Source of the DNA: Mycobacteriales bacterium
GTDB lineage: Bacteria; Actinomycetota; Actinomycetes; Mycobacteriales; CADCTP01
Assembly (NCBI GenBank): GCA_036558285.1
Contig: DATBFW010000145.1
Span: 19,214-83,213, forward strand
Length of the DNA stretch: 64,000 nucleotides
Direction of reading: 5' to 3'
In this document: one piece after another, positions 7,627 to 20,328 of the stretch
Layout: each line of letters begins with the position of its first letter
How positions within the stretch are numbered: the first letter of the stretch is position 1
Made by a program: the position numbers and the translations under genes
Notes under the pieces: generated by a model
What the model saw: only the letters and a program-made list of their open reading frames with translations
Told to the model about the DNA's origin: nothing
Database searches by the model: none

Positions 7627-9549
7627 TTAGTCGTACAGGCGGAGGTCGGCGACGCTCCACCAGCTGCCCGACGACCCGGTCGAGACCACCCGCAGGTAGC
7701 GGGCGTGGGTCCGCGGGACGTCGATGGCGGTGAGCTGGCCGGTGCCGGTCCCGCTAGCCAGCGTTCGCCAGCCGGCGGCGTCGTTGCTGGCCTGCAGGGT
7801 CCACGAGCGGGCGTAGTCCCCGGTGCTGGCACCGGTGTCGAGGACGACCCGGCGGAAGGCCTCCCGGCGGCCGAGATCGACCTGCAGCTGCTGGCCGGGC
7901 TCCTGCGCGGTGTCGGTCGACCACCGGGTGGACGCGTCGTCGTCGACCGCGCCCTGCGGCGTCTCGCCGGTCGGCGTCGCGGTCACCGTCGCCCCGTTCA
8001 GCGGCACCAGGTCGTACCCGTCGTCGAGCTGGCGGCTGCGCGGCCAGGTGAAGGTCGCCAGCGCCCCGCCGGGCAGCGTGTAGTCGAACGACCGGCCGCC
8101 GACCGCGACCGCGAACGTCCGCGGGTCGTCGTTCTCGTTGTGCACGACGAGCGCGGTCGAGCCGTCCGGGTTGCGGAACGCGACGTCCATGATCTGGCCG
8201 TTCCAGCCGGTGGTGCCGAAGGACGTGCTGGCGATCCGGACCGCGCCCGGCTGCACGAACTTCGACAGGTGGCCGATCGTGTAGTACTCGGCGTTGGTGG
8301 ACACCGTGCCGTCCGCCTCGAGGGTCAGCAGCCCGGTGCAGGTGTCGCAGCCGCCGTTGTGCGGGCCGCCGCTGGAGTCGAGCGCGATGTTCCAGGTGAT
8401 CGCGGTCTTCGCCCAGTTGCGGGTGGTGCCGATGGTGATGTTGCGGGCATGGAAGGTCAGCGTGTCCCGGAAGAACTTGGCCGGCGGGTCGTCCGGGCCG
8501 TGCGAGCCGGAGCACTCGGTGAACCAGATCCCCTTGTCCGGATAGGCGTCGTGCAGCGCGGTCTGCGCGCTCGGGTCACCGGAGTAGCAGTGGTAGGCGG
8601 TGCCGGCCACCCACTTCGCGGCGGGGCTGGCGAGCACCTCGTACGGGTAGTCGGTCTCCGGATCCTCGCCCGGCGGCGTGCTGGCGATGTCGCCGGGGTG
8701 GGTGGTCCAGTTGTGGTCGTACGCCAGGATCCTGGTCCGCAGACCGGCCGCCCGCAGCGCCGGCCCCACCGCCTCGATGAGCTTGACCTCCTGCGGCACC
8801 GGCAGGTCCATGCCAGGGTAGGCGTTCGGGGTCCGGTTCTGCGGCTCGTTCTGCACGGTGAGGTAGTCGACCGGGACGCCGGCGGCGCGGTACGCCTGGA
8901 CGAACTTGACGAAGTAGCGGGCGTACGCGGCATAGACGCGCGGGTCGTCCTTGAGCCGGCCGCCGATGAGGGAGTCGGTGGTCTTCATCCACGCCGGCGG
9001 GCTCCACGGGGTGGCGATCACCGTCACGCGCGGATTCAGCGCCCTGGCCCGGCGCAGCAGCGGCAGGATCTGCGCCTGGTCGTGGGCGATGCTGAAGTGC
9101 GCCAGCGCGAAGTCGGTCTGCCCGGCGGGCATGTCGTCGTAGGTGTAGTGCGGCTCGTCGGTGAAGTCCGAGGACCCGATCGGCTGGCGCAGCGCGCTGA
9201 CGCCGATCCCCCGTGCCGGATCGAACAGGCTGCGCATCGCCCGCTCGCGCGCCGCCGGGTCGAGCCGGTAGAGCACGGCGGCCGACGAGTCGGTGATCGA
9301 CGCTCCGAACCCGTCCATCGTCTGGTAGGTCCGGCTCGGGTCGACCGTGATCGTCAGCTCCCCGCTCCGCTGGGTGCCGAACGCGACGGTGCCGCGGTCG
9401 TGCATCAGCTCGGCCCGGTCGGGCGAGGTGACCCAGACCCGCGCGGTCGGAGCGGCACCGCCGGGGTCGGCGCTCGCGGCAGCGGGTGGGACGACCGCCG
9501 CGGTCAACGCGACCGCACCGACGACGACGAAGAAGCGACGTTGCCTCAT
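7627..9549 (-). CDS. Secreted glycoside hydrolase family 30 enzyme with C-terminal F5/8 type C (CBM32-like) domain
   Basis: Signal peptide MRQRRFFVVVGAVALTAAVVPPAAASA. TMDGFGASITDS, YLTVQNEPQ (acid/base Glu) and IWFTECSG (nucleophile Glu). C-terminal AVDDDASTRWST..YLRVVSTGSSGSWWSVADLRLYD. The ORF 7627-10479 upstream extension is rejected. Confidence 0.9.
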   Translation of the reverse strand: MRQRRFFVVVGAVALTAAVVPPAAASADPGGAAPTARVWVTSPDRAELMHDRGTVAFGTQRSGELTITVDPSRTYQTMDGFGASITDSSAAVLYRLDPAARERAMRSLFDPARGIGVSALRQPIGSSDFTDEPHYTYDDMPAGQTDFALAHFSIAHDQAQILPLLRRARALNPRVTVIATPWSPPAWMKTTDSLIGGRLKDDPRVYAAYARYFVKFVQAYRAAGVPVDYLTVQNEPQNRTPNAYPGMDLPVPQEVKLIEAVGPALRAAGLRTRILAYDHNWTTHPGDIASTPPGEDPETDYPYEVLASPAAKWVAGTAYHCYSGDPSAQTALHDAYPDKGIWFTECSGSHGPDDPPAKFFRDTLTFHARNITIGTTRNWAKTAITWNIALDSSGGPHNGGCDTCTGLLTLEADGTVSTNAEYYTIGHLSKFVQPGAVRIASTSFGTTGWNGQIMDVAFRNPDGSTALVVHNENDDPRTFAVAVGGRSFDYTLPGGALATFTWPRSRQLDDGYDLVPLNGATVTATPTGETPQGAVDDDASTRWSTDTAQEPGQQLQVDLGRREAFRRVVLDTGASTGDYARSWTLQASNDAAGWRTLASGTGTGQLTAIDVPRTHARYLRVVSTGSSGSWWSVADLRLYD

Positions 9550-9632
9550 CGAAAGGCCCTTCGGTCCGAAAGGGGCACCAGCTACCCGACTGTTACCCAG
9601 CCCCGGCCCCTGGCTACCCCGGGCGGACCCGG

Positions 9633-10100
9633 TCAGAGCACCGGGCGGAGGGGCGGCTCGTGCGGTCCGTACCGGGAGCGCAGCACGGCCGAGACGGCGC
9701 GACGCAACGCGGCGACGTCGCCCGGCCCGGCGACCTGCGCCCACCCGTCCTCGATCGCCCGGTACGCCGCCTCCGCGTCGGCGAGGAACCGCCGCCCGTC
9801 CGCGGTGAGCCCGAGGACGGCGGCCCGGCGGTCGCCGGGATCCTCGCGCCGCTCGACCAGCCCCTCGTCGACGAGCGAGGAGACCACCTTCGCCGCGGCC
9901 TGCTTGGTGACGCCGAGCAGCTCGCCCACCGCGCCGATGTTGCGCGGCCGGTCCCGCAGGGCGAGCAGCACGAAGCCCCACATCGGCCGTGCCCGCGGCC
10001 ATCCCGCGTCGGCCAGCCGCTCGTGCAGCTCGTCGACGACGGCGGCCAGCGCCATCGCCAGCAGCCGCCCGAGCGGCTGGTCGCCGACTACAGCGCCCAC
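9633..10100 (-). CDS. MarR family transcriptional regulator
   Basis: Winged-helix region IGAVGELLGVTKQAAAKVVSSLVDEGLVERREDPGDRRAAVLGLTADG. The GTG start overlaps the stop of the upstream cupin gene (GTGGGCGCTGTAG). Confidence 0.9.
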   Translation of the reverse strand: MGAVVGDQPLGRLLAMALAAVVDELHERLADAGWPRARPMWGFVLLALRDRPRNIGAVGELLGVTKQAAAKVVSSLVDEGLVERREDPGDRRAAVLGLTADGRRFLADAEAAYRAIEDGWAQVAGPGDVAALRRAVSAVLRSRYGPHEPPLRPVL

Positions 10101-10462
10101 GGCGGGGTGAACGGCTCCTCGCCCGGCATCCGTGCCTGACCGCCCACCGGGAGGTACGCGAGGGCGACCACGGGTTCCGTGCCGACCGCGGCCAGGCTGA
10201 ACGGGGTGTTGGGCGGCACGATGATCGCGCCGCCGGCCTCGACCTCGGCGACCCGGCCGCCGATCGAGGCGCGAGCGGTCCCGGACAGGACCACCAGCAC
10301 CTCCTCACGGGTGAGCTCGTGCGGGACGGCATCGGCGTCGGGTGGCAGCTCGACCCGCCACACGCAGATCTCGGTGGATCCGGACGACGGCGCGGCGAGC
10401 GGCGTGAACCGGGTGCCGGCCAGCTCGTGGACGGACGCGGTACGGGAGTGGGCGACGGGCAT
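10088..10462 (-). CDS. Cupin domain protein
   Basis: MPVAHSRT..HELTREEVLVVLSGTARASIGGRVAEVEAGGAIIVPPNTPF has a beta-barrel cupin pattern. Translationally coupled to the MarR gene. Confidence 0.8.
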   Translation of the reverse strand: MPVAHSRTASVHELAGTRFTPLAAPSSGSTEICVWRVELPPDADAVPHELTREEVLVVLSGTARASIGGRVAEVEAGGAIIVPPNTPFSLAAVGTEPVVALAYLPVGGQARMPGEEPFTPPWAL

Positions 10463-10472
10463 GTCGGCATGA

Positions 10473-10491
10473 TAGACAACCAAGTTGTCTA
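10473..10491. promoter_or_regulatory. Perfect 8+8 inverted repeat TAGACAAC-CAA-GTTGTCTA (candidate MarR operator)
   Basis: Seen directly, 11 nt upstream of the cupin-MarR operon start. AT-richer than its surroundings. MarR proteins typically autoregulate through such palindromes. Confidence 0.5.
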
Positions 10492-10509
10492 GTGTCGAGT
10501 AGCCGGGCA

Positions 10510-10580
10510 TGGCGGCTAGCAGGAACTCCGGCACTCCGGGTGGCATGGCCGGCGGCCTCCGGCTGACCGGGCTGACAGCC
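10510..10580 (+). promoter_or_regulatory. Conserved upstream module A: CTAG palindrome (TGGCGGCTAGCAGGAA) + TGGCATGG box + GGCTGACCGGGCTGACAGCC
   Basis: Aligns base-for-base with module B (12790-12860), including an identical 21-mer, and with module C. Its first base lies 144 nt before the Ser/Thr kinase ATG. Confidence 0.5.
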
Positions 10581-10653
10581 GCGACGGGAGAGGCCATTTT
10601 TGCTTGTGTCCGGTCGAGTACGCCCGATTGTCCACAAAGGAGCATCGACCGCC

Positions 10654-11547
10654 ATGACCGCTTACTGTCCACAGCCGACGATCCGCCAGCCGCGCGCCGC
10701 GCGAGCGCGGGTTCCGGTAAGGGCGGCCCGGTCACCGGTCGGCGAGCTGCTGGCCGGCCGCTACCGGGTGGCGGAGCGGGTCGGTCACGGCGCGACCGGC
10801 GGGGTGTGGCGCGCCGAGGACGAGCTGCTCGACCGGGACGTCGCGGTCAAGCGGCTCCCCCATCGACAGCCGGAGGGGTTGGCCGAGGCCCGCATCGCGG
10901 CCAGGGTGCGGCATCCCTCGGTCGCCACCGTGCACGACCTGGTCGAGCACGACGGGTCGTCCTGGATGGTGATGGACTACTACCCGGGCGGCACGCTCGC
11001 CGCGCTGCTGCAGGAGCAGTCCCGGCTGCCTCCGCCGGTGATCGCGGCGCTCGGCCTCCAGCTGGTCACCGCGCTCGACGCGGTGCACGCCGCCGGCATC
11101 GTGCACTGCGACGTCAAGCCGGCCAACCTGGTGCTCGGTGCGGACGGCCGGCTGGTGCTGGTGGACTTCGGGATCGCCGAGGCCGGCGACGCCGGTCCGG
11201 TCAACCCCGTCCGTGACGAGGGCTTCGTCGTCGGCTCCCCGGCGTACATGGCGCCGGAGCTGGTCCGCGGCGAGACCGCGTGCCCGGCGGCCGACGTGTG
11301 GTCGCTCGGCGCGACCCTGTACGCCGGGGTCGAGGGGCGGCCGCCGTTCGCGGGCGACGCGGCGGAGATCCTCGCAGCGGTGCTCAACGACCCGCCGCTG
11401 CCGACCCGCCGGGCCGGCCCGCTGGCGCCGCTGCTCGATCGGATGCTGGCCAAGGACCCGGCCCAGCGTCCCGCTCACGAGGCGATCCGGACGGCGCTGG
11501 CGGACGTCTCCCTCGCCCCGGCCGCGGGTGTGGTCGGCCAGGGCTGA
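10654..11547 (+). CDS. Ser/Thr protein kinase, catalytic domain only
   Basis: RBS AAAGGAG. GHGATGGVW (Gly loop), VAVKRL, HCDVKPANLV, DFG and SPAYMAPE are all intact. No TM or sensor domain follows. Confidence 0.9.
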   Translation: MTAYCPQPTIRQPRAARARVPVRAARSPVGELLAGRYRVAERVGHGATGGVWRAEDELLDRDVAVKRLPHRQPEGLAEARIAARVRHPSVATVHDLVEHDGSSWMVMDYYPGGTLAALLQEQSRLPPPVIAALGLQLVTALDAVHAAGIVHCDVKPANLVLGADGRLVLVDFGIAEAGDAGPVNPVRDEGFVVGSPAYMAPELVRGETACPAADVWSLGATLYAGVEGRPPFAGDAAEILAAVLNDPPLPTRRAGPLAPLLDRMLAKDPAQRPAHEAIRTALADVSLAPAAGVVGQG

Positions 11548-11551
11548 CGAC

Positions 11552-11567
11552 TTCCGGCTAGCCGGGA
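11552..11567. promoter_or_regulatory. CTAG-centred palindrome, site E (TTCCGGCTAGCCGGGA)
   Basis: Identical 16-mer to site D. Lies 36 nt upstream of the REC-only gene start 11603, in the 55-nt gap after the kinase gene. Confidence 0.5.
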
Positions 11568-11602
11568 TGCGCGGCGGCGATCCGCCGGGCAGCGTTGTCC
11601 GC

Positions 11603-12013
11603 ATGACACTGCGGTGCCTGATCGTCGACGACAGCCCTGCCTTCGTCGCGACCGCCCGCAGCCTGCTGGAGGGCCAGGGGATGAGCGTGCTCGGCGCGGT
11701 CGCCACCGGGGCCGACGCGCTACGGCTGACCGCGGACCTGCGCCCCGACGTCGTGCTGGTCGACCTGGATCTCGGCCCGGAGAGCGGCCTCGAGGTGGCC
11801 GGACGGCTGGCCCGGTCCGCCGAACCCGCGCCAACGCCGGTGATCCTCATCTCGACCTACGCGCAGGAGGACTTCGCCGACCTCATCGCCGACAGCCCCG
11901 CCGTCGGGTTCATCCCCAAGACCGCACTGGCGGTCGCCGCCATCCGCGAACTGCTCGGCGGTCAGGGCACCGCGGACCCGACCGGGACCGTCACCGGGCC
12001 CCGAGGAAGGTGA
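11603..12013 (+). CDS. Single-domain response regulator (REC only), paralogue 2
   Basis: MTLRCLIVDDSP..RPDVVLVDLDLGPESG..PVILISTY..VGFIPK. Roughly two-thirds identical by eye to 5856-6218. An upstream in-frame ATG at 11567 is possible. Confidence 0.85.
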   Translation: MTLRCLIVDDSPAFVATARSLLEGQGMSVLGAVATGADALRLTADLRPDVVLVDLDLGPESGLEVAGRLARSAEPAPTPVILISTYAQEDFADLIADSPAVGFIPKTALAVAAIRELLGGQGTADPTGTVTGPRGR

Positions 12014-12650
12014 CGACAGCCAGCACCCGGCGGTGGTCGTCCTCGGTCTCCGGCAGGTCGAGCTTGGCCAGGATGCTGCGCACGTGCTTCTCGACGGTGC
12101 CCTCGCTCACCCACAGCCGTCTCGCGATGCCCCCGTTCGACCGGCCCTCCGCCATCAGCGCCAGCACCTCGCGCTCCCGGCCGCTCAGCCGGCCCAGCGG
12201 GTCGTGGCGACGGCGGACCATGACCAACTCCTGCACCAGGGCGGGATCGACGACCGACCCGCCCTTCGCGATGCGGTCGAGCGTGTCGGCGAACTCGGCC
12301 ATGTCGACGACCCGGTCCTTGAGCAGGTAACCGACCGCACGGCCGGTGGCCAGCAGACCCATCGCCTGCTCGACGTCGGCGTGCGCGGAGAGGACCAGGA
12401 TGCCGATCTCCGGATGCTGCTCGCGGATCTGGCGGGCGGCGTCGAGGCCCTCGGTCGTCCTGGTCGGCGGCATCCGGACGTCCACCACGACCACGTCCGG
12501 CGTGCAGTCCGCCACCAGCGCCAGCAGCTGTGTCCCGTCGCCAGCCTGGCCGACCACCTGCATTCCCGACCGCTCGAGCAGGCTGGCCATCCCCTCCCGG
12601 AGCAGGACGTCGTCATCGGCCAGGACGATCCGGAGCCCACTGCCGCCCAC
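11991..12650 (-). CDS. NarL/FixJ-family two-component response regulator (REC + LuxR HTH)
   Basis: LRIVLADDDVLLREG..DVVVVDVRMP..LVLSAH..GYLLK, then LSGREREVLALMAEGRSNGGIARRLWVSEGTVEKHVRSILAKL. Confidence 0.92.
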   Translation of the reverse strand: MGGSGLRIVLADDDVLLREGMASLLERSGMQVVGQAGDGTQLLALVADCTPDVVVVDVRMPPTRTTEGLDAARQIREQHPEIGILVLSAHADVEQAMGLLATGRAVGYLLKDRVVDMAEFADTLDRIAKGGSVVDPALVQELVMVRRRHDPLGRLSGREREVLALMAEGRSNGGIARRLWVSEGTVEKHVRSILAKLDLPETEDDHRRVLAVVTFLGAR

Positions 12651-12789
12651 CGGTCACGCTCCGGGAGCCGGGCGGCCCGCCGCCGTCGGCCGCGTCGTCA
12701 TCGGGCCATTGTCGGCGAGCGGCCGCGGACCCGGTACCCCCACGCGCAGGTACGGCCGTACACCCGGCCCGACGGACGCCGGGACGGTC

Positions 12790-12860
12790 TGGCGGCTAGC
12801 TGGAAGGCCGACGCTGCTGATGGTGTGGACGCGGCCTGGTGGCTGACCGGGCTGACAGCC
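12790..12860 (+). promoter_or_regulatory. Conserved upstream module B: CTAG palindrome (TGGCGGCTAGCTGGAA) + TGGTGTGG box + GGCTGACCGGGCTGACAGCC
   Basis: See module A. Sits in the divergent region between the NarL-type regulator (start 12650) and the cupredoxin gene. First base is 146 nt before ATG 12936. Confidence 0.5.
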
Positions 12861-12935
12861 GGGACCGGCCGCGGGATGGTCATGGCGTCGGAGGCCACGC
12901 GGCGTCCGGACAAGGGTCCGCAAAAGGGATCGGGG

Positions 12936-13358
12936 ATGTCCAGGACAGCAGTAGCCCGGATACGAGCGCGCCGCCTGCTCGTCGGGATCGTCGCCATGCT
13001 GGCAGCTCTCACGACGGTCGCCGCGTGCGGCTCGGACTCGGGCGGCGGTGGCGGCGCGACCCCGCCACCGGCCTCGGCGTCCGCGTCCAACGGATCGGCC
13101 GCCCAGGGAGGCGGATCCACGGTGGAGATCATGAACTTCATGTTCATGCCGGGCACCCTGACCGTCCCCGCCGGCACCACGGTGACCTGGAAGTTCGACG
13201 ACTCGACCCAGCACACCGTCAACGCCGACGACAATTCGTTCTCGTCGTCGCCGATGGCGAACAGCTAGACGTTCACGCACAAGCTCACGACCGCCGGCAC
13301 GGTGACCTATCACTGCTCGATACACCCGTTCATGAAGGGCACGATCGTCGTCACGTAG
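12936..13358 (+). pseudogene. Cupredoxin (plastocyanin/amicyanin-like) lipoprotein gene interrupted by an in-frame TAG at 13266-13268
   Basis: Lipobox LAALTTVAAC. VEIMNFMFMPGTLTVPAGTTVTWKFDDSTQHTV..SSPMANS-stop-TFTHKLTTAGTVTYHCSIHPFMKGTIVVT. The Cys/His/Met copper ligands lie after the stop, in the same frame. Confidence 0.75.
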
Positions 13359-16300
13359 CAGCTGGTCGTGCCAGCGGCAGCTCGGCCCGGACGGTGGTGC
13401 CGGTGCCGGGCGCGCTGGTCAGCCACATGCGGCCGCCGAGCGCCTCGACCCGGTCCTTGACCCCGATCAGCCCGGATCCGCCGTGCAGGTCGGCGCCGCC
13501 GCGGCCGTCGTCGCTCACCCGGACCCGCAGGACCCCGTCGTCCGCGTCGACGTCGACGGTGACCGCCGTGGCCTCCGCGTGTTTGGCCGTGTTGGTCAAC
13601 ATCTCGGCGACGGCGAAGTACGTGGCGATCTCGACCTGCTCCGGCAGCCGCCCACCGACCTGTACGTCGAGGCGAACCGGCACGGTGCAGCGGCGGGCCA
13701 GCACGCGCAGCGCGGGACCGAGGCCGCCCTCGGTCAGAGCGGCCGGGTGGATGCCGCGGGCCAGCTCGCGCAGCTCGCCGACCGCGGTGTCGGCCTCGGC
13801 GGCGATGGCGTCCAGCCGCGCGTCCAACTCCGCGGACCCGGCCGGGCCGGCCTCCTTGGCGATCCGGGCCTGGATCGCGAGGCTGACCAGCCGCTGCTGG
13901 GCGCCGTCGTGCAGGTCCCGCTCGATGCGCCGGCGGGTCTGGTCGGCCGCCGTGACGATCCGCGCGCGGGACGCGGTGAGCTCCGAGTACAGCTGGGCGT
14001 TGTCGAGGGAGACGGTGAGCTGGGCGGCGATGAGCCTGACCGCGTCGAGCCGCTCGCTGGTGAACGCGCCGCGGATGAGCCGGTTCTCCAGCAGCAGCAC
14101 CGCCCGGAGCGACTCGCGGCCGAGGACGGGCAGCGCCAGCACGGAGCAGCGGCTCAGGCCGGCGAAGTACGGGTCGCGGGCGAACCGGTCGTCGCAGGTC
14201 GCGTCGTCCACGACCAGCGGCTGCCGGGCCCGCCGCACGTACCGCAGCACGGACATCGGCAGGTCTGACCCGCGGCCCGCGCCGGTGCCGCCCGGGCCGG
14301 GCAGCCAGGCCTGCTCGTCCTCGCTCCACAGCACCAACCGCACGCCGGTGGCTCCGGTCATCGTGCTGACCACCTGGACGACGCGCGAGCGCAGCCGCTC
14401 GATGCTGGTCTCCGAACTCAGTGCCTGCGACGCGGAGAGGATGCCGAGCAGGTCGAGCGTGCCGGTGGTGACGGTCGGGCGCGGGCCGACCGGGGCGCCG
14501 GCCGCCGGGTCGGTGTCCGGTCGCAGCGTCGGGTGCGCCCAGTCGAGCTGGGCGACCTTCGCCGTCGCGCCCCACACCGCGTAGGCGTGCCTGGCCTGCG
14601 CGAGCAGGTCCAAGCCGGCGTGCTCGACGCCGTGGGCGAGGTAGAAGCGGGCCGCGCGCTCGTCGATCAGCGCCCGGTGCCAGGGCCGGCCGCGGCCGGC
14701 GACGGCGCGTCGGGCGGCGTCGAAGGCGAGCACGGCGATGCGGAAGTCGCCGACCGTCCAGGCGCGCTCGGCCTCGACCAGCCGCAGCAGGTGCAGGAAG
14801 TTGGCCGGCCCGTCGGCGGCGCGGGCGGACAGCCACCGGGTCAGCTCGTCCAACTCGGCCAGCAGGGCGGCCCGCTCGTCGCCGTCGGTGCCGCGGGCCT
14901 GCCCGGCCAGCGCCAGCCCGCGCAGCAGCCGGGCGACCCCGGTCGGGTAGATGCCCTGCGCCGCTGTGAGCAGCGGCGTCGCCGCCGCGGTGTGCCGCAG
15001 CAGCCCGGGCGCGTCGTCGAGGACGGCGGCCGCGATCGCCCGGTTGATGTGCGTGTAGACGAGCGCCGCCGGGTTGTCGGCCGGTCGGTCGATCGGGATG
15101 ACGTCGCCGGCCGGTTCGCTTTCCCCGCGCAGCACGCCGCCCAGCCACCGGTACGGGTCGAGCAGCTCGCCGGACTGCGCGTTGCCGGTCCGGCGGACGA
15201 AGGCCAGGCACGCCTCCACGGCCGAGACGTAGGCGTCCAAGGACGGCGACGACTCCAGCAGGCCGGCCACCTCGGTGTGGCAGGCGTATCCGGCCCAGGC
15301 CAGCTCGCCGCCCGCGACCAGGCCCTCCCTGGCCCGCGCGGCCTCCCGGACGGCCAGCTCGATCGGCTCGAACCAGCAGCAGAGGGTGGCGAACGACGCG
15401 CGCACCAACGACGTCTCCGGCTCGAAGCCGCGGGACTCACCGAACGCCAGCGCGTACCGCATCGCCCGGTAGCCGACGGCGTAGTCGCCGCGCAACGCCA
15501 TCACGGCGTTGGCGGCGTGGGTCGCCGGGCCGATCAGGGACCGGCCGGGGCCGTGCTCCAGCCAGATCCGTACCGTCTCCAGGCTCAGCCACGCGTACAG
15601 GGAGAAGTCCGACGCGAAGAAGGCGGGCGGCAGGATCGCGTTGGTCAGCCGGGTCCCGGCGAGCAGCGCCGGATCGGTGATGTCCGGCCGGGCCGGGCCG
15701 GCAGAGCCCTCGACGTGGTCGAGCCACCGGTAGAGGTGATCGACCTGGGCGTCGAGCTCGGCCGGGAACCGCTCGGCGGTCGGAACGGCGATGCCGAGGT
15801 CGCGCAGCGCCGCGACGCCGAGAGCGACCGCGTCGGCGAAGCGGTTGCGGTGCGTCAGGCTGCTCAGCTGCACCGCCGTCGCGTCCGCCCGCTCCAGCGC
15901 GAGCGGGCACATCCCCTCGAGAATGCCGTACTCCTCGTCCGCCTCCTCCAGCCGCCCGAGGCCGAACAGGGCGGCGTGCCGGCGGGTGTGGATCTCGACG
16001 AGCGCGTCGGTCCGGTCGTCGTCGACGAGGGTCAGCGCGGCGCCGAGCAGGGCGCACACCAGCGCGTGGTCGGCCAGCGACCGGGCGCCCTCGGCCGCGC
16101 GCCGCAGCAGCTCTACCACCCGCTCCCGCTCGGCCGGGTCGTCCAGCGCGTCGATGACCGGCAGGTACTGCTCGGCGGCGACCGCGCACAGCTCGGGCAC
16201 CGGCGCCAGCCGGCGGGCCATGGTCAGGTGCAGGTCGCGTCGCCGGTCCGGGCCGAGGCCGCGGACGATCGCCTCCTGGATGCGGTCGTGGCGGAACCGC

Positions 16301-18267
16301 ACCGCCTCCTCGGCGCCCGGCTCGACCACCAGGACGCCCTCGTCGAGGGCCGGGGCGAGCTGCCGTTCCAGCGTGTCGGCCGGCTCGCCGGTGGCGGTCT
16401 GCAGCGCGTTGGCGGTGGCGCGCCCGCCGAGGCACGCCATCGCCTCGACCAACTGCCGGGACGGCGCCGGCATGTCCGCGACCGGCGTCGGCAGCGGCCC
16501 CCCGGCGTCGGGCCGGTCGAGGCGCTCACGGGCGGCGGCTGCGTCCCAGCGCCAGCCGCCGCCGGTCGCGGTGAGCACGCCCTCGCGGCGCAGCGCGTTG
16601 AGCAGTTCCACCGTCTCGTACGGGTTGCCGGCGGTGTGCAGCCCGACCAGCTCGGCCAGCTCCGCCGCGTCGGCCGGGTCCGCCCGCAGCATCTCGGCGA
16701 CCATGGTGGTCAGGCCGGCGGCGGGCAGGTTGGCGAGCCGGACGTGCCGCACGCCGGCCCGGTCCTGCCACCGGGACAGCGGCCCTGCCAGCGGATTCGC
16801 GCCGGTCACCGCCTGCTCCCGGTACGCGCACACGACCAGCAGGCCCTCGATCGGCTCGTCCTCCTCCAGCAGGAGGTCGACGAAGCCGAGCGGGGTTCGG
16901 CCGACCCACTGCAGGTCGTCGAGGACGAGCACGATCGGTCGCGCCGGTGACGCGGCCGCCCGCAGCACCTCGACGCCGTTGCGCTGGCCGCGGATCTGCA
17001 CGGTCATCGGATCCCCGGTGTCCGGCGGCACCGCCAGCAGCGCGCCGTACTCCGGGACCACCGCGGCCATCAGGCCGGCGCTGGCACCGAGCGCCGCCCG
17101 CATCCGCTCGCGCACCTCGACCAGCTCGTCCTCCGGCTCGGCCAGCAGCAGCCGGCCGAGCGTGCGGAACGCCCGGTAGACCGCGCTGGCCTCCAGGTCC
17201 CGCCGGTACTGGTCGAACTTGCCGGCCACGAACCAGCCGCCGGCGCGGGTCACCACTGGCCGCAGCTCGTCGATCAGCGCGGTCTTGCCGACCCCGGCCG
17301 CGCCGCCGACGAGCACCGCCCGGCCGCGCCCGGCGAGCGCGTCGTCGAACGCCTCGTGCAGCGTCGCGACCTCGGCCTCGCGGCCCACCAGCCTGGACGG
17401 CGGCAGCAGCCGCAGCGGGACGTCGCCCCGGCCGACGCGCACCGGCGCCGCGGCCCGATCCGGGCGGGCGTCCCGTACCCGCTGGAGGTCGTGGAGCAGG
17501 CCGTCCGCGGTCTGGTAGCGGTTGTCCGGCTCCTTCTCCAGCAGGTGCAGGATGATCTCGGACAGCGGCAGCGGCATGGCGGCGTTCATCTCGGCCGGCG
17601 ACACCGGGACCCGGGCGAGGTGGTCGTGGGTGAGCCGCAGCGGGTCGCCGGCACCGAACGGCGGTGCGCCCGTCGCCAGCTCGTACAGCGTCGCACCTAA
17701 GGCGTACAGGTCGGCCCGCTGGTCCACGGAACGGCCGGTGCGCCCGGTCTGCTCCGGGGCCAGGTACGCGAGCGTGCCGACGATCTCGGTGTGGTGGGTG
17801 AACTCGGGCCGGATCTCGGCCAGCGGCGTCGCCAGGCCGAAGCCGACCAGGCAGGGCGTGCCGTCCCGGGACAGCACGACGTTCGCCGGGGTGATGTCGC
17901 GGTGCAGCACACCCTGGCGGTGCATCCCCGCCACCGCGCCGGCCAGCGCGGACCCCAGCCGGACCAGGGCCGCGGCGTCCAGCGGCGTCGGCGCGCTGGC
18001 CAGGCTGGGGCCGCCGAGGTCCAGCAGCGAGATCGACCCCGGATACCGCGGCTCGTCCAGCAGCTGCACGACCCCGGCGACGCCGACCAGCCGCTGCAGC
18101 ACCGCCCGCTCCTGCCGCAGCCGGCGCTCGGCGTCCGGCCCCAGCGGCTGCTTGCGGATGACCGTCCCGCCGGGGAGGAAGATGCGGGTGACCCGGGTAC
18201 GGCCGGTCTCGCGCAGCACGTCAGCCGGACCAGGCAGCTCTCCGCCTGTCTGCATCGGCGCCTCCAC
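13351..18267 (-). CDS. Multidomain signalling protein: kinase-like domain + AAA/STAND ATPase + helical repeat region + GAF + HisKA_3/HATPase histidine kinase
   Basis: N-terminal HRDITPANVV..LVGFGLAT..LAYLAPEQ. Walker A VLVGGAAGVGKTAL. GAF region ..DPYFAGLSRCSVLALPVLGRESLRAVLLLENR. H-box RRIERDLHDGAQQRLVSL and a C-terminal ATPase (..GGSGLIGVKDRVEALGGRMW). The start may be GTG 18267 or ATG 18255. Confidence 0.92.
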   Translation of the reverse strand: MEAPMQTGGELPGPADVLRETGRTRVTRIFLPGGTVIRKQPLGPDAERRLRQERAVLQRLVGVAGVVQLLDEPRYPGSISLLDLGGPSLASAPTPLDAAALVRLGSALAGAVAGMHRQGVLHRDITPANVVLSRDGTPCLVGFGLATPLAEIRPEFTHHTEIVGTLAYLAPEQTGRTGRSVDQRADLYALGATLYELATGAPPFGAGDPLRLTHDHLARVPVSPAEMNAAMPLPLSEIILHLLEKEPDNRYQTADGLLHDLQRVRDARPDRAAAPVRVGRGDVPLRLLPPSRLVGREAEVATLHEAFDDALAGRGRAVLVGGAAGVGKTALIDELRPVVTRAGGWFVAGKFDQYRRDLEASAVYRAFRTLGRLLLAEPEDELVEVRERMRAALGASAGLMAAVVPEYGALLAVPPDTGDPMTVQIRGQRNGVEVLRAAASPARPIVLVLDDLQWVGRTPLGFVDLLLEEDEPIEGLLVVCAYREQAVTGANPLAGPLSRWQDRAGVRHVRLANLPAAGLTTMVAEMLRADPADAAELAELVGLHTAGNPYETVELLNALRREGVLTATGGGWRWDAAAARERLDRPDAGGPLPTPVADMPAPSRQLVEAMACLGGRATANALQTATGEPADTLERQLAPALDEGVLVVEPGAEEAVRFRHDRIQEAIVRGLGPDRRRDLHLTMARRLAPVPELCAVAAEQYLPVIDALDDPAERERVVELLRRAAEGARSLADHALVCALLGAALTLVDDDRTDALVEIHTRRHAALFGLGRLEEADEEYGILEGMCPLALERADATAVQLSSLTHRNRFADAVALGVAALRDLGIAVPTAERFPAELDAQVDHLYRWLDHVEGSAGPARPDITDPALLAGTRLTNAILPPAFFASDFSLYAWLSLETVRIWLEHGPGRSLIGPATHAANAVMALRGDYAVGYRAMRYALAFGESRGFEPETSLVRASFATLCCWFEPIELAVREAARAREGLVAGGELAWAGYACHTEVAGLLESSPSLDAYVSAVEACLAFVRRTGNAQSGELLDPYRWLGGVLRGESEPAGDVIPIDRPADNPAALVYTHINRAIAAAVLDDAPGLLRHTAAATPLLTAAQGIYPTGVARLLRGLALAGQARGTDGDERAALLAELDELTRWLSARAADGPANFLHLLRLVEAERAWTVGDFRIAVLAFDAARRAVAGRGRPWHRALIDERAARFYLAHGVEHAGLDLLAQARHAYAVWGATAKVAQLDWAHPTLRPDTDPAAGAPVGPRPTVTTGTLDLLGILSASQALSSETSIERLRSRVVQVVSTMTGATGVRLVLWSEDEQAWLPGPGGTGAGRGSDLPMSVLRYVRRARQPLVVDDATCDDRFARDPYFAGLSRCSVLALPVLGRESLRAVLLLENRLIRGAFTSERLDAVRLIAAQLTVSLDNAQLYSELTASRARIVTAADQTRRRIERDLHDGAQQRLVSLAIQARIAKEAGPAGSAELDARLDAIAAEADTAVGELRELARGIHPAALTEGGLGPALRVLARRCTVPVRLDVQVGGRLPEQVEIATYFAVAEMLTNTAKHAEATAVTVDVDADDGVLRVRVSDDGRGGADLHGGSGLIGVKDRVEALGGRMWLTSAPGTGTTVRAELPLARPAAT

Positions 18268-18353
18268 GCTCGGACCTGGGCGCGGCTCCCGCCGTGCCTA
18301 CGCCCGCCCCACCCACTCGCGCAAGAGTGGCACCCAAGCCCGGCCCAACGGCA

Positions 18354-18427
18354 TACCAGCTAGCCGGAAGGGCGAGGCTGCGGATGGCATGGACCCCGGT
18401 AGGCGGCTGGCCGGGCAGACGGCAGCC
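18354..18427 (+). promoter_or_regulatory. Conserved upstream module C: CTAG palindrome (TACCAGCTAGCCGGAA) + TGGCATGG box + GGCTGGCCGGGCAGACGGCAGCC
   Basis: Third copy of the module, in the divergent region between the giant kinase gene and the LuxR solo. First base is 133 nt before ATG 18487. The GGCTG/CAGCC arms are kept although the loop is 3 nt longer. Confidence 0.5.
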
Positions 18428-18486
18428 GTGCCGGCAGCGATGGTTGGTGTACATCGAGCGGAGCGGTGCGACACCGGAGGTAGCTC

Positions 18487-18981
18487 ATGACCGCGGCAAC
18501 GGCCCCGCCGGACGTCCTCGACGGCAGCGCGCCGCTCCCGGGCGGCGGCCCGGCCGGGGACCTGCGGGCCGTGTTCGGCGACCTGATGCGGCTGCACGCG
18601 GAGGCGGCCGGGATCCAGGCCGAGGCGCGCCACCGGGTGCCGCACGACCTGGACGAACGGCTCGCCGGGCTCGCCAGGGGTCTCGGCCGGGCCGCCGGCC
18701 GGCTGTCGTCCTCCTACCCGTCCCCGCACGCCGTCCGGCCCGTCGGGTCCGTCCGGCCCCGTCACTGGCAGGGGTGGGCTGCGCTGACCCCGGCGGAGCT
18801 TGAGGTGATCCGGGTGGTGGTGGCCGGCCGCACCAACCGGGAGGCGGCGGCGCTGCTGTTCCTGTCGCCGCACACGGTCAGCTCACACCTCCGGCACGCG
18901 TACGCGAAGCTCGGCATCAACTCCCGCGTCGAACTGGTCCGCGCGGCGGTGGCCACCGACATCCCCGGGCAGCAGCTGTAA
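18487..18981 (+). CDS. LuxR-family HTH regulator without a receiver domain (LuxR solo)
   Basis: RBS GGAGG. C-terminal LTPAELEVIRVVVAGRTNREAAALLFLSPHTVSSHLRHAYAKLGINSRVEL. The N-terminal ~95 aa has no recognisable domain. Confidence 0.85.
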   Translation: MTAATAPPDVLDGSAPLPGGGPAGDLRAVFGDLMRLHAEAAGIQAEARHRVPHDLDERLAGLARGLGRAAGRLSSSYPSPHAVRPVGSVRPRHWQGWAALTPAELEVIRVVVAGRTNREAAALLFLSPHTVSSHLRHAYAKLGINSRVELVRAAVATDIPGQQL

Positions 18982-19006
18982 CCCTGGCGGGGCTCGCGGA
19001 CATCTG

Positions 19007-19573
19007 ATGGGTATGGAGCCCGACCAGGTCGCCCGCTTCGAGCAGCTGTTCGCGGCGCACTACGGCGACCTGATGCGGTTCGCGACGCGGCGAGTGGGCG
19101 CGGATGCCGCCGGCGACGTCGTCTCCAGCACGTTCCTGGTCGCGTGGCGCCGGCTCGCCGACGTACCCGCCGATCGGAGCCGGGCCTGGCTGTTCGGCAC
19201 CGCCCGCCGGGTGATCGCGAACGAGCTGCGCGGACGCGAACGCCGTGAGCGGCTCGGCCGCCGGGTCGCGGCGCACGTCGACGTGGCGGCCGACGACCAC
19301 GCGGGACCGGTCACCGAGCAGCTGCGGGTCCGGGCCGTGCTCGGCGAGCTCCCACCGGGCGACCAGGAACTGTTGCGCCTGACCGAGTGGGACGGCCTCG
19401 ACATCGACCAGGTCGCCGCCGTCCTCGGCTGTTCCCCCGCCGCGGTGAAGGTGCGCCTGCACCGGGCCCGGCGCCGCTTCGCCAACCGGCTGGCCGCCGC
19501 CGACAGGGCCGACGAGGCCGTCGGTCGCACGGTCCGGCCGATCAGACTTCCCGAAGGGAACGCGACCTCATGA
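19007..19573 (+). CDS. ECF-type RNA polymerase sigma factor
   Basis: Region 2 (FEQLFAAHYGDLMRFATRRV..VSSTFLVAWRR) and region 4 (LPPGDQELLRLTEWDGLDIDQVAAVLGCSPAAVKVRLHRARRRF). Confidence 0.9.
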   Translation: MGMEPDQVARFEQLFAAHYGDLMRFATRRVGADAAGDVVSSTFLVAWRRLADVPADRSRAWLFGTARRVIANELRGRERRERLGRRVAAHVDVAADDHAGPVTEQLRVRAVLGELPPGDQELLRLTEWDGLDIDQVAAVLGCSPAAVKVRLHRARRRFANRLAAADRADEAVGRTVRPIRLPEGNATS

Positions 19574-20328
19574 ACACCACCACCGGCGCTGCCCTGGCCC
19601 GCCTTCGCTCGGTCGATCCGGTGTCCGGCCTGCCCGTGCCGGATGCGCAGGACGTCACCGCCAGGGCCATGCTCGACCAGATCCTCGCCGAACAACCGGG
19701 CGGTACGCCGGGTCATCGCCGCACCCGGCGTCGGCTGGTGATGGCCGGCGTCGTCGCGACGACGGCCGCCGCCGTGGTCGCTGCGGGAGTCGTCACCACC
19801 CCGTGGTCGCACGGTCGGCCGGCATCCGCCGCCTACGCGGTGACGACCGACGGCGACGGCGCGGTGAGCGTGACGGTGTACTGGGACCAGTTGCGCGATC
19901 CCGCGGCGCTCAACGCGGAGCTGGCGAGGCTGGGCGCGCGCACCGTCGTGATGCAGCGCTCGACCGACGGCGCGTGCCGGACGGGGGTCGCGACGGACCC
20001 GGCCCATCCTCCGTACCTGGGCATCAAGTTCGACGAGCACCCCGAGCTGCGTGACCCGGCGAAGTTCCGGGACTACGTGTGGTCGCAGATGCCGTGGATC
20101 GACCAGACGTACCGGTGGACGGACGGGGTGGCCTTCACGATCCGGCCGAACAGGATCCCCACCGGCGACACGCTGCTGATCCCGTACGAGTTCGCCCGCA
20201 CCGAACCGGCGGAGCCCGGCGGCACGGATGCGGCACTCTACGGCTCGATGCTCGTACGGGACGTTCCGGCCTGCTTCCCGGGCACCGCCGATGCCGTGTA
20301 CACGACCAACGGCGTCGAGGTGCGCTGA
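19570..20328 (+). CDS. Membrane-anchored protein, probable anti-sigma partner
   Basis: The start overlaps the sigma stop (ATGA). One TM segment (LVMAGVVATTAAAVVAAGVV). No family recognised for the extracytoplasmic part. Confidence 0.65.
   Translation: MNTTTGAALARLRSVDPVSGLPVPDAQDVTARAMLDQILAEQPGGTPGHRRTRRRLVMAGVVATTAAAVVAAGVVTTPWSHGRPASAAYAVTTDGDGAVSVTVYWDQLRDPAALNAELARLGARTVVMQRSTDGACRTGVATDPAHPPYLGIKFDEHPELRDPAKFRDYVWSQMPWIDQTYRWTDGVAFTIRPNRIPTGDTLLIPYEFARTEPAEPGGTDAALYGSMLVRDVPACFPGTADAVYTTNGVEVR

What the first reader, a model, noticed from the sequence alone, without database searches (positions are those of the whole stretch)
10510..18427. Three copies of a ~70-nt upstream module at a fixed distance (133-146 nt) from start codons: promoter cassette or structured leader
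**What the sequence shows.**
- Beyond the palindrome, sites A (10510-10580), B (12790-12860) and C (18354-18427) stay alignable in the same orientation.
- The shared layout is GCTAGC.GGAA, about 15 nt, (G)ATGG(C/T)(A/G)TGG(A/C)C, about 10 nt, then GGCTGACCGGGCTGACAGCC.
- A and B share an identical 21-mer (GGCTGACCGGGCTGACAGCCG).
- C reads GGCTGGCCGGGCAGACGGCAGCC. It keeps the GGCTG/CAGCC arms while the enclosed segment is 3 nt longer, as expected if a stem is under selection.
- A and B also contain GCTGAC twice, 9 nt apart.
- Each module precedes a plus-strand gene at nearly the same distance: Ser/Thr kinase 10654, cupredoxin 12936, LuxR solo 18487.

**Interpretation.** The translated frames differ and have no stops or starts in common, so a conserved peptide is unlikely. 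The module could be a duplicated promoter/operator cassette or a cis-regulatory RNA leader. I recognise no known riboswitch class in it.
Basis: seen in the sequence. Interest (0 to 1): 0.7.

Follow-up and report, generated by a model that had tools for sequence, protein, structure and literature searches.

The report
Shared promoter-operator cassette in signalling cluster
The three repeated 70-nt modules are real, but they are most likely untranscribed promoter and regulator-binding DNA that puts three (really four) operons of one actinobacterial signalling gene cluster under common control, which is a useful but ordinary kind of element and not a structured RNA leader.

Summary
Three gapless, same-orientation copies lie at 10510-10588, 12790-12868 and 18354-18432 (3 pattern hits against 0.03 expected). 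There are no other full copies in 64 kb, so it is not a REP/MITE.

I collected 28 distinct copies from soil metagenomes and MAGs of one Mycobacteriales lineage. The module always sits upstream, in the same orientation, of the same kinds of gene: a Ser/Thr kinase, a small lipoprotein, or a LuxR solo. The gene on its other side varies.

The module contains two related boxes 47 bp apart: a distal GGCTAGCCGGAA and a proximal GGCTGRCCGGGC. The proximal box ends in a -35-like CWGACR. An SANNNT -10 motif follows 17 nt later in all 28 copies, although the spacer itself is not conserved.

A fourth, overlooked promoter lies between the kinase gene and a receiver-domain gene. It is a near-perfect palindrome, TTCCGGCTAGCCGGGA (11552-11567), with the same box-to-(-10) distance. 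Its -10 sits 7 nt before an ATG that has no Shine-Dalgarno sequence, which suggests a leaderless transcript. That places the box centre at about -42.5, the classic class II activator position.

RNA tests were negative: no Rfam hit, no consensus fold on either strand, no compensatory pairs, and ordinary z-scores.

Best reading: an activator-dependent promoter cassette, probably bound by the cluster's NarL-type response regulator and/or the LuxR solo. It is a new member of a known kind, of modest interest.

The parts
10510..10525 (+). Module A distal box TGGCGGCTAGCAGGAA, a half-degenerate copy of the palindrome TTCCGGCTAGCCGGAA
   Evidence: GCTAGC is conserved in 27 of 28 distinct copies (GCTAAC in one, L007).
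10541..10548 (+). Module A middle block TGGCATGG
   Evidence: TGG..TGG is invariant in the pattern-ascertained copies and relaxed to TGGCGGGG in L053.
10557..10577 (+). Module A proximal box CTCCGGCTGACCGGGC (centre 10564.5), overlapping the -35-like hexamer CTGACA (10572-10577)
10595..10600 (+). Predicted -10 CATTTT for the kinase operon. The predicted start is about 10606-10608, giving a 5' UTR of about 47 nt before ATG 10654.
   Evidence: Invariant A and T in alignment A2. 17-nt spacer and offset 0. No transcription start was mapped.
10654..11547 (+). Ser/Thr protein kinase, 297 aa, kinase domain only
   Evidence: Pfam Pkinase, E 1.4e-43.
11552..11567 (+). Fourth site: near-perfect palindrome TTCCGGCTAGCCGGGA (centre 11559.5) between the kinase stop codon and the receiver gene
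   Evidence: Conserved in L051, L039, L053 and L008 while the flanks diverge.
11590..11595 (+). Predicted -10 CAGCGT of the receiver-gene promoter. Its T lies 7 nt before ATG 11603 and there is no Shine-Dalgarno sequence, so the mRNA is probably leaderless.
   Evidence: Orthologues read CAACGT or CACGGT at the same place.
11603..12013 (+). Stand-alone receiver-domain (REC) protein, 136 aa
   Evidence: Pfam Response_reg, E 7.5e-18. Translation.
11991..12650 (-). NarL/VraR/DevR-type response regulator (REC + GerE HTH). This is the candidate protein binding the palindromic boxes.
   Evidence: Pfam. PDB relatives VraR, DevR and NarL. It is a neighbour of the module in most loci long enough to show one.
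12790..12805 (+). Module B distal box TGGCGGCTAGCTGGAA
12821..12828 (+). Module B middle block TGGTGTGG
12837..12857 (+). Module B proximal box TGGTGGCTGACCGGGC (centre 12844.5) plus the -35-like hexamer CTGACA (12852-12857)
12875..12880 (+). Predicted -10 GATGGT for the lipoprotein gene. The predicted start is about 12887.
12936..13268 (+). 110-aa lipoprotein with a partial cupredoxin-like N-terminal half
   Evidence: Signal/lipobox sequence. Cupredoxin_1 E 0.0065, below the cut-off.
13351..18267 (-). 1638-aa hybrid sensor: Ser/Thr kinase, AAA_16, GAF, HisKA_3, HATPase_c. It is the probable partner kinase of the response regulator.
   Evidence: Pfam.
18354..18369 (+). Module C distal box TACCAGCTAGCCGGAA
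18385..18392 (+). Module C middle block TGGCATGG
18401..18421 (+). Module C proximal box AGGCGGCTGGCCGGGC (centre 18408.5) plus the -35-like hexamer CAGACG (18416-18421)
18439..18444 (+). Predicted -10 GATGGT for the LuxR-solo/ECF operon. The predicted start is about 18451.
18487..18981 (+). LuxR solo: C-terminal GerE HTH and a 95-aa N-terminal region with no family match. It is a second candidate binder and would be autoregulated.
   Evidence: Pfam GerE. Homologues.
19007..19573 (+). ECF sigma factor, co-transcribed with the LuxR solo in this genome. It is absent at this position in closely related strains.
   Evidence: Pfam. Presence/absence.

Best explanation
The module is untranscribed promoter and operator DNA. 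It is not an RNA element.

Each copy is the upstream half of an activator-dependent, housekeeping-type (SigA-like) promoter. Its parts are:
- a proximal box, GGCTGRCCGGGC, whose 3' end runs into a -35-like CWGACR;
- a 17-nt (16-18) spacer that is not conserved;
- a weak -10 of the form SANNNT.

Transcription would start about 7 nt further on, leaving short 5' UTRs of roughly 35-50 nt.

The proximal box is a degenerate copy of the 16-bp palindrome TTCCGGCTAGCCGGRA. Its centre falls at about -42.5. A second, better copy of the box lies 47 bp upstream, at about -89.5. A third conserved block, TGGCRTGG, lies at about -62.

The same palindrome, at the same distance from a -10 motif, forms a simpler fourth promoter in front of the leaderless receiver-domain gene.

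I infer that a dimeric GerE-type helix-turn-helix protein encoded in the cluster binds the boxes and recruits RNA polymerase, in the manner of a class II activator. The most likely candidate is the NarL-type response regulator, controlled by the giant Ser/Thr-kinase/histidine-kinase hybrid. The LuxR solo may occupy the non-palindromic middle block.

The result would be that the kinase-receiver operon, the lipoprotein gene and the LuxR-solo(-ECF) operon are switched on together as one small regulon with feedback.

What is shown: the repeat family, its orientation and gene association, the conserved -35/-10 geometry, the fourth site, and the absence of evidence for RNA structure.

What is inferred: the transcription start positions, activation rather than repression, and the identity of the binding protein.
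For: 1. Real and specific. There are 3 hits against 0.03 expected and no other full copy in 64 kb. Related contigs of 31 kb and 44 kb also carry 3 copies each.

2. Synteny. Across 31 metagenome/MAG loci plus L053-L055, the module always points at a downstream gene: a Ser/Thr kinase, the lipoprotein, a LuxR solo, a Lipoprotein_15 protein or a DUF2231 protein. The upstream neighbour varies: GH30, the response regulator, the giant kinase, the receiver gene, another ECF, or a co-directional ndh or response-regulator gene.

3. Promoter geometry. In alignment A2 the only invariant columns downstream of the proximal block are the A and the T of ANNNT. All 28 distinct copies have SANNNT at a fixed offset from the proximal box: offset 0 in 22 copies, +1 in 5 and -1 in 1. 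All have CWGACR 16-18 nt upstream of it.

4. Window-wide check. Of 20 GGCTRRCNGG boxes on both strands, only four have ANNNT at +35.5 bp: A, B, C and the receiver-gene site.

5. The receiver-gene site. The palindrome and cANNNT are conserved in lineages whose flanks differ. The T lies 6-7 nt before an ATG with no Shine-Dalgarno sequence. This independently anchors the ANNNT as a -10 and puts the box centre at -42.5.

6. Literature. ANNNT at -13 to -6 is the core -10 of 79% of mycobacterial promoters, VANNNT promoters are weaker, and leaderless mRNAs are common (PMC6448022). The LuxR lux box is centred at -42.5 (PMC3376562).

7. Box enrichment. GGCTRRCCGGR gives 8 hits against 0.89 expected.

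8. Candidate binders. Two GerE-HTH proteins are encoded in the cluster.

9. Negative RNA tests.

10. The neighbouring GH30 gene has its own separate promoter (TCGACA-18-TATCAT, 10498-10469). The module is therefore not needed for that gene.
Against: - No transcription start site or binding data exist. The organism is known only from MAGs and metagenomes.
- The -10 lacks the usual first T (S instead of T). ANNNT reads the same on both strands, so a leftward promoter cannot be formally excluded.
- The proximal box overlaps the -35-like hexamer. Depending on the true start site, a bound protein could repress rather than activate.
- The two boxes are 47 bp apart, about 4.5 helical turns, so they lie on opposite faces of the DNA. 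That is not the textbook arrangement for cooperative activators.
- The middle block has no assigned binder.
- The copies come from one narrow lineage and the most conserved blocks hardly vary. The absence of covariation is therefore weak evidence against an RNA structure.
Confidence: 0.68

Rival explanations
1. The module is a transcribed cis-regulatory RNA leader (riboswitch-like or protein-binding), made from a promoter upstream of GCTAGC. The GGCTG...CAGCC hairpin, or pairing between box 1 and box 3, would act on the downstream gene.
For: The module lies at a roughly constant distance from start codons. RNAalifold pairs the distal box with the proximal box, with only one-sided changes. Leaders B and C fold slightly better than shuffles (z = -1.89 and -1.57).
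Against: There is no Rfam match, even at E <= 10, apart from a chance sul1 hit at 19 bits against a threshold of 36. The consensus energy is only -4.5 kcal/mol on the plus strand and -6.2 on the minus strand, and no pairs have compensatory changes. The outer stem pair is broken in 7 of 16 sequences. The three minimum-energy folds are unrelated to each other. No conserved promoter lies upstream of the module, whereas a conserved -35/-10 lies at its 3' edge. The complementarity between box 1 and box 3 is expected if both are copies of one palindrome.
Confidence: 0.08
2. The module is the target promoter of an ECF or other alternative sigma factor, such as the ECF at 19007-19573, which would then autoregulate. 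GGAA(C/G) would be the -35 and block 2 the -10, or CWGAC would be the -35 and CGTY the -10.
For: An ECF gene is co-transcribed with the LuxR solo behind module C. A different ECF/anti-sigma pair lies divergent from the module in L014. GGAAC resembles common ECF -35 elements (my own knowledge). Several -10 regions read CGTC or CGTT.
Against: The ECF gene is absent directly behind the LuxR solo in at least seven loci (L006, L007, L012, L013, L026, L041, L045). Those that also carry the module keep it essentially unchanged, including a locus (L012) whose 140-nt module sequence is identical to that of one that has the ECF (L021). GGAA is not conserved: it reads GGGCAC, GGGAGG or CGGAGG in other copies. 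GAC and CGT are 21-22 nt apart, compared with the 16-17 nt that I recall as usual for ECF promoters. The hexamer spacing of 17 nt fits a housekeeping-type promoter.
Confidence: 0.09
3. The DNA element is the same but the logic differs. It could be a repressor operator array that occludes the -35, or a bidirectional control region that mainly serves the divergently transcribed regulator genes (the response regulator and the giant kinase).
For: All three window copies lie in divergent intergenic regions. The proximal box overlaps the -35-like hexamer. ANNNT reads the same on both strands.
Against: The upstream neighbour is not conserved. In L002 and L050 it is co-directional, and in L002 the module starts at the stop codon of ndh. 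The distal box has no ANNNT at the matching distance on the minus strand. The -10 is weak (SANNNT) and the receiver-gene site sits at -42.5, both of which fit activation. GH30 has its own promoter.
Confidence: 0.12
4. The module is a dispersed REP/MITE-like repeat, or the footprint of a conserved small peptide (uORF).
For: The sequence is repeated. Block 2 contains ATG or GTG in the three window copies, with an in-frame TGA in A and B.
Against: There are only 3 full copies in 64 kb and 3 per related contig, always in this cluster and always in front of genes. No terminal inverted repeats were seen. The would-be start codon is ATG, GTG, TTG or CTG in different copies, and the stop codon is lost in C-type copies.
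Confidence: 0.02

Closest known systems
Class II activator-dependent promoters with a GerE/LuxR-family inverted-repeat operator (for example the lux box of luxI, centred at -42.5)
   Same: There is an inverted-repeat box centred about 42.5 bp upstream of the predicted start, overlapping the -35 region. The -10 is weak. GerE-type HTH proteins are encoded next door (PMC3376562).
   Different: The box is 16 bp (TTCCGGCTAGCCGGRA) rather than 20 bp, and its sequence is unrelated to the lux box. The full module adds a second box 47 bp upstream and a non-palindromic middle block. No acyl-homoserine-lactone domain is present. The binder and the start site are inferred, not measured.
NarL/DevR(DosR)/VraR-type two-component regulons, with several operator copies in front of a few operons and a GAF-HisKA_3 sensor kinase
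   Same: The response regulator's closest solved relatives are VraR, DevR and NarL. The partner sensor carries GAF-HisKA_3-HATPase_c, as DosS/DosT do (the DosS/DosT architecture is from my own knowledge). Palindromic boxes recur in front of the cluster's genes.
   Different: As I recall the published DosR and NarL sites, the box sequence matches neither. The sensor is fused to a Ser/Thr kinase and an AAA_16 domain. The regulon seen so far is confined to the cluster.
Mycobacterial/actinobacterial SigA-type promoters with an ANNNT -10, and leaderless mRNAs
   Same: There is an invariant ANNNT at the right distance from a -35-like hexamer. In the receiver gene it lies 6-7 nt before an ATG with no Shine-Dalgarno sequence (PMC6448022).
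   Different: The base before ANNNT is always G or C, the weaker VANNNT class. Conservation extends about 65 bp upstream of the -35, far more than a plain promoter needs.
Rfam cis-regulatory RNAs of Actinobacteria
   Same: It is a conserved, GC-rich sequence of about 70 nt upstream of genes.
   Different: It matches no covariance model and has no conserved structure or covariation.

Membership tests
Structured cis-regulatory RNA / riboswitch | Match to a curated covariance model | tested here: not met
   No hits at gathering thresholds over the whole window. At E <= 10 there is only a 19-bit sul1 hit against a threshold of 36.2.
Structured cis-regulatory RNA / riboswitch | Conserved secondary structure supported by compensatory changes | tested here: not met
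RNAalifold gives -4.5 kcal/mol (plus strand) and -6.2 kcal/mol (minus strand). The one such pair in the plus-strand fold is broken in 4 of 16 sequences. z-scores are 0.22, -1.89 and -1.57. Low sequence variation limits the power of this test.
Structured cis-regulatory RNA / riboswitch | Lies within the transcribed 5' UTR | not testable with these tools
   The predicted -35/-10 places the start downstream of the module. No transcription start data exist.
SigA-type actinobacterial promoter | ANNNT -10 motif 6-13 nt upstream of the start site | tested here: met
   The A and T are invariant in 16 of 16 aligned sequences and present in 28 of 28 distinct copies. At the receiver gene the T is 6-7 nt before the ATG. 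The start site itself is not mapped.
SigA-type actinobacterial promoter | -35-like hexamer 16-18 nt upstream of the -10 | tested here: met
   CWGACR matches TTGACA at 4-5 of 6 positions. The spacer is 17 nt in 22 copies, 18 nt in 5 and 16 nt in 1. The stricter generic scan does not call these sites because the -10 matches TATAAT at only 2-3 of 6 positions.
Class II activator promoter with a GerE/LuxR-family operator | Inverted-repeat operator | tested here: met
   TTCCGGCTAGCCGGGA at 11552 and 5171 matches the ideal palindrome at 15 of 16 positions. The distal boxes match at 13-14 of 16, and the only proximal box within the 5-mismatch listing (A) at 11 of 16.
Class II activator promoter with a GerE/LuxR-family operator | Operator centred near -41.5/-42.5 | tested here: inconclusive
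   The box centre lies 35.5 bp before the T of the -10 in A, B, C and the receiver-gene site. That equals -42.5 if transcription starts 7 nt after that T. This is supported by the leaderless ATG at the receiver gene but has not been measured.
Class II activator promoter with a GerE/LuxR-family operator | Bound and activated by a GerE-family protein | not testable with these tools
   Two candidates are encoded in the cluster. Their recognition helices differ.
ECF sigma-dependent promoter | Conserved AAC-type -35 and CGT-type -10, 16-17 nt apart | tested here: not met
   GGAA is variable. The distance from GAC to CGT is 21-22 nt.
ECF sigma-dependent promoter | Co-occurrence with the cognate ECF gene | tested here: not met
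   No ECF gene lies directly behind the LuxR solo in L006, L007, L012, L013, L026, L041 and L045, most of which still carry the module. An ECF gene elsewhere in those genomes cannot be excluded.
REP/MITE-like dispersed repeat | Many copies unrelated to gene starts | tested here: not met
   There are 3 full copies per 31-64 kb of sequence, all in one cluster and all upstream of genes in the same orientation.
Leader peptide / uORF | Conserved start codon and reading frame | tested here: not met
   The first base of the would-be start codon is A, G, T or C in different copies, and the stop codon is not conserved.

The most novel reading that the evidence does not exclude
The module could be transcribed after all, from an unrecognised upstream or alternative-sigma promoter. 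It would then act as a lineage-specific structured leader in which the distal and proximal boxes pair with each other. Alternatively, as DNA, it could be a three-site, enhancer-like platform where a Ser/Thr-kinase pathway (acting through the LuxR solo) and a two-component pathway (acting through the response regulator) are integrated at a single promoter.
Probability: 0.1. Interest if true: 0.55.

Novelty: new member of a known kind. Interest (0 to 1): 0.27.

Why it matters
The element defines a small, self-contained regulon in an uncultured soil Mycobacteriales lineage. It links a Ser/Thr kinase, a stand-alone receiver, a NarL-type regulator, a giant Ser/Thr-kinase/histidine-kinase hybrid, a LuxR solo and sometimes an ECF sigma factor.

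That helps anyone studying cross-talk between Ser/Thr-kinase and two-component signalling.

It removes one candidate from the list of possible new riboswitches. It does not reveal a new kind of mechanism.

Tried and rejected
- **Rfam.** Searches at gathering thresholds and at E <= 10 found nothing.
- **Genome-collection scan.** A strict three-block pattern gave only 3 loci. One of them (L003, Solirubrobacterales) is probably a chance hit.
- **Metagenome scan.** It returned 49 loci, of which 18 were false positives. Most were collagen-like GGCTGACCGGGCTGAC repeats.
- **uORF in block 2.** Rejected, because the start base is variable.
- **N-terminal extension of the downstream proteins.** Rejected. 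In-frame stop codons at 10573-10575 and 18481-18483 close the kinase and LuxR frames.
- **Peptide on the reverse strand.** Rejected, because B-type copies have no ATG there.
- **Promoter for the divergent genes.** I looked for -35/-10 pairs on the minus strand within blocks 0-2, and for ANNNT 35.5 bp from the distal box. I found none.
- **Promoter for GH30.** Rejected, because GH30 has its own promoter.
- **Deeper orthologues.** LuxR-solo homologues at 52% identity (L056, L057) lack the module, so phylogenetic depth could not be increased.
- **ECF autoregulation.** Rejected on spacing and on the presence/absence pattern of the ECF gene.
- **Module copies as deletion endpoints.** The deletion junctions in L007, L016, L022 and L023 are not at module boundaries.

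Full report
**Observation**

The window has 74.6% G+C. The LuxR-solo protein encoded at 18487 is identical to one annotated from a 'MAG TPA: Mycobacteriales bacterium'.

The three sites are real. The repeat finder reports them as one family of three copies: 10510-10588, 12790-12868 and 18354-18432, at 75% and 65% identity to copy A and without gaps.

The composite pattern GCTAGCNGGAA-N14-RTGGYRTGGMC occurs exactly three times even when three mismatches are allowed, against 0.03 expected.

**Gene context**

GC3 frame analysis and Pfam give this order:

| Coordinates | Strand | Gene |
|---|---|---|
| 7627-10479 | - | GH30 glycosidase |
| (module A) | | |
| 10654-11547 | + | Ser/Thr kinase |
| 11603-12013 | + | stand-alone receiver (REC) |
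| 11991-12650 | - | NarL-type response regulator |
| (module B) | | |
| 12936-13268 | + | 110-aa lipoprotein |
| 13351-18267 | - | 1638-aa protein: Ser/Thr kinase, AAA_16, GAF, HisKA_3, HATPase_c |
| (module C) | | |
| 18487-18981 | + | GerE-type LuxR solo |
| 19007-19573 | + | ECF sigma factor |

The lipoprotein is only a sub-threshold, partial cupredoxin match. All three modules lie in divergent intergenic regions, so the strand they serve had to be established.

**Relatives**

- A strict pattern scan of one genome per species found three loci. Two are true relatives: L001, an Actinomycetota MAG, and L002, a Mycobacteriales MAG.
- A metagenome scan with the block 2 + block 3 pattern found 49 loci. 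Of these, 31 are true copies from soil and rhizosphere samples.
- Looking up LuxR-solo homologues added L053-L055, at 64% protein identity.
- Homologues at 52% identity have no module. The element is therefore confined to one fairly narrow lineage.
- In total there are 28 distinct copies.

**Which genes the module serves**

tblastn synteny and gene calls show that the module always points at a downstream gene. That gene is one of:
- the Ser/Thr kinase (A-type copies, and the divergent copies in L034, L050 and L053);
- the lipoprotein (B-type copies);
- the LuxR solo, with or without the ECF (C-type copies, L008, L053);
- a Lipoprotein_15 protein (L014, L040);
- a DUF2231 membrane protein followed by the giant kinase (L002).

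The gene on the other side is not conserved. It can be GH30, the response regulator, the giant kinase, the receiver gene or a different ECF/anti-sigma pair. In L002 and L050 it is a co-directional ndh or response-regulator gene, and in L002 the TAG stop of ndh is the TAG inside GCTAGC.

GH30 has its own canonical promoter, TCGACA-18-TATCAT at 10498-10469 on the minus strand, wrapped around a palindromic operator.

Each genome fragment of 31-64 kb carries only three full copies, all within the cluster. That excludes a REP/MITE-like repeat.

**Anatomy**

The alignment of 16 distinct copies (A2) shows these conserved parts:
- an AT about 8 nt before GCTAGC;
- block 1, GCTAGC.GGAA;
- a small CT.C motif;
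- block 2, TGGCRTGG;
- block 3, GGCTGRCCGGGCWGAC.

After block 3 comes an unconserved stretch. The only invariant columns in it are an A and a T four positions apart.

In all 28 distinct copies this SANNNT lies at a fixed distance from block 3: offset 0 in 22 copies, +1 in 5 and -1 in 1. Examples are GATGGT, CATTTT, GATCGT, GAGCGT, CATCGT, GAAGGT, CACGCT, GAGTTT and GACCGT. It is preceded, 16-18 nt upstream, by the last six bases of block 3, CWGACR, which match TTGACA at 4-5 of 6 positions.

This is the geometry of a housekeeping-type promoter. ANNNT at -13 to -6 is the core -10 element of 79% of mapped Mycobacterium smegmatis promoters, and promoters with V instead of T before it are weaker (PMC6448022).

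The '3-nt longer loop' in copy C disappears once this is seen. The spacer from CWGACR to the -10 is 17 nt in A, B and C alike.

**A fourth site**

Block 1 is one half of a 16-bp palindrome. Near-perfect copies, TTCCGGCTAGCCGGGA, occur at 11552-11567 and 5171-5186.

The 11552 site lies between the kinase stop codon and the receiver gene. It is conserved in lineages whose flanks have diverged: L051, L039, L053 and L008. It is followed by cANNNT (CAGCGT, CAACGT or CACGGT), whose T sits 6-7 nt before the receiver gene's ATG. There is no Shine-Dalgarno sequence, and an alternative upstream ATG is out of frame in L053. This is the signature of a leaderless mRNA.

The distance from the palindrome centre to that T is 35.5 bp. 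The same 35.5 bp separates the centre of block 3 from the -10 T in A, B and C, when block 3 is read as a degenerate copy of the same box (GGCT|RRCC).

Of 20 such boxes on both strands of the window, only these four have ANNNT at that distance. With a start 7 nt after the T, the box centre is at -42.5. That is the position of the lux box and of class II activator sites in general (PMC3376562).

The full module then reads:
- distal box at about -89.5, 47 bp upstream of the proximal box (46 bp in three copies);
- middle block at about -62;
- proximal box at -42.5, overlapping the -35;
- weak -10.

The box motif GGCTRRCCGGR is enriched in the window: 8 hits against 0.89 expected.

**RNA hypothesis**

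- There is no Rfam match at any sensible threshold.
- RNAalifold on the 16 sequences gives -4.5 kcal/mol on the plus strand and -6.2 kcal/mol on the minus strand, with a negligible covariation term.
- The only helix proposed pairs the distal box with the proximal box. That is expected if both derive from one palindrome, and it shows no compensatory change.
The outer pair forms in 9 of 16 sequences, there are no double-sided changes, and the shuffle control is uninformative.
- Most C-type orthologues lack the CAGCC arm.
- Single-sequence folds of the three leaders are unrelated to each other and are not unusually stable: z = 0.22, -1.89 and -1.57.
- A conserved peptide is excluded, because the would-be start codon is ATG, GTG, TTG or CTG in different copies.
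- In-frame stop codons separate modules A and C from the downstream coding frames.

The low variation of the core blocks means the RNA tests have limited power. I therefore keep about 8% for this reading.

**ECF hypothesis**

An ECF gene follows the LuxR solo in the window. It is missing directly behind the LuxR solo in at least seven related loci. One of these, L012, has a module identical over 140 nt to that of a locus that has the ECF, L021. GGAA is not conserved, and the GAC-to-CGT distance of 21-22 nt does not fit the ECF spacing I recall as usual. I give this about 9%.

**Mechanism (inferred)**

A dimeric GerE-type HTH protein binds the palindromic boxes and activates four weak promoters. 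The most consistent neighbour of the module is the NarL/VraR/DevR-like response regulator. Its likely sensor is the giant kinase, which carries GAF-HisKA_3-HATPase_c.

The LuxR solo has a different recognition helix. It could bind the non-palindromic middle block.

The targets include the regulator-side genes themselves: the kinase, the receiver and the LuxR solo. This implies feedback.

Whether binding activates or represses, and which protein binds, are not shown.

**Verdict**

The element is a lineage-specific member of a well-known kind: an activator-type promoter with repeated operators. It has a tidy and testable geometry, plus one extra promoter that had been overlooked. Interest is modest.

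Noticed in passing
window 10469-10498 (minus strand): The GH30 gene has a canonical promoter, TCGACA-18-TATCAT. Its spacer is filled by the palindrome ATAGACAAC-caa-GTTGTCTA (10471-10491), which looks like a repressor operator. In the relative L001 a near-identical palindrome, TATAGACAACgtgGTTGTCTATA, lies on the other side of module A, where the kinase gene has been deleted.
   Followed up: partly
window 5171-5210: Two palindromes 24 nt apart: TTCCGGCTAGCCGGGA, identical to the 11552 site, and TTCCGGTGACCGGGAA. They lie between an HhH-GPD gene (4428-5105, minus strand) and a stretch of gene fragments, namely an apparent sugar (MFS-type) transporter piece judged from its sequence alone and the C-terminal 34 aa of a second response-regulator paralogue at 5743-5844. 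That paralogue is intact in L039 and L025 but has a different upstream region there. The sites have no ANNNT at the +35.5 position.
   Followed up: partly
window 29617-29632: A partial box, TTCCGGCTAGCGGAGG, lies at the 3' end of a zf-HC2 anti-sigma-like gene (29623-30378, minus strand), apparently between converging genes. Its function is unknown.
   Followed up: no
L001, L007, L016, L022, L023, L025 compared with window 10654-19573: The cluster is highly polymorphic among closely related strains. The ECF gene is present or absent. The giant kinase is internally deleted in L016 and absent, along with all or part of the lipoprotein gene, in L022, L025 and L007. The receiver gene is deleted in L022, L025 and L023, and the kinase is deleted in L001. 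The promoter modules are retained throughout. Some of this may be assembly artefact.
   Followed up: partly
window 13351-18267 (minus strand): A 1638-aa protein combines an N-terminal Ser/Thr kinase domain, an AAA_16 domain, a GAF domain and a HisKA_3/HATPase_c histidine kinase in one chain. In L054 the GAF-HisKA_3-HATPase part is called as a separate 534-aa gene.
   Followed up: no
window 12884-12896; L014, L040, L050 at equivalent positions: A conserved YCGGAGGC(C) motif lies right at or after the predicted transcription start of B-type and related copies, far from the start codon. A-type leaders share CTGTCCACRRMGGAG, which includes the Shine-Dalgarno sequence. These may be downstream operator or 5'-end RNA features.
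   Followed up: no
window 41767-41934 and 25420-25539: There are two tandem repeat arrays: about 13-14 copies of a 12-nt unit (GCGGCGCTGACG) at the start of a 1028-aa ORF, and about 8 copies of a 15-nt unit (CGCCCGGGTTCGCGC).
   Followed up: no
window 19573-20351: No convincing high-GC3 ORF lies between the ECF gene and the next gene (20351-21010, minus strand). Together with the presence/absence polymorphism of the ECF, this stretch may be decaying sequence, for example a lost anti-sigma gene.
   Followed up: no
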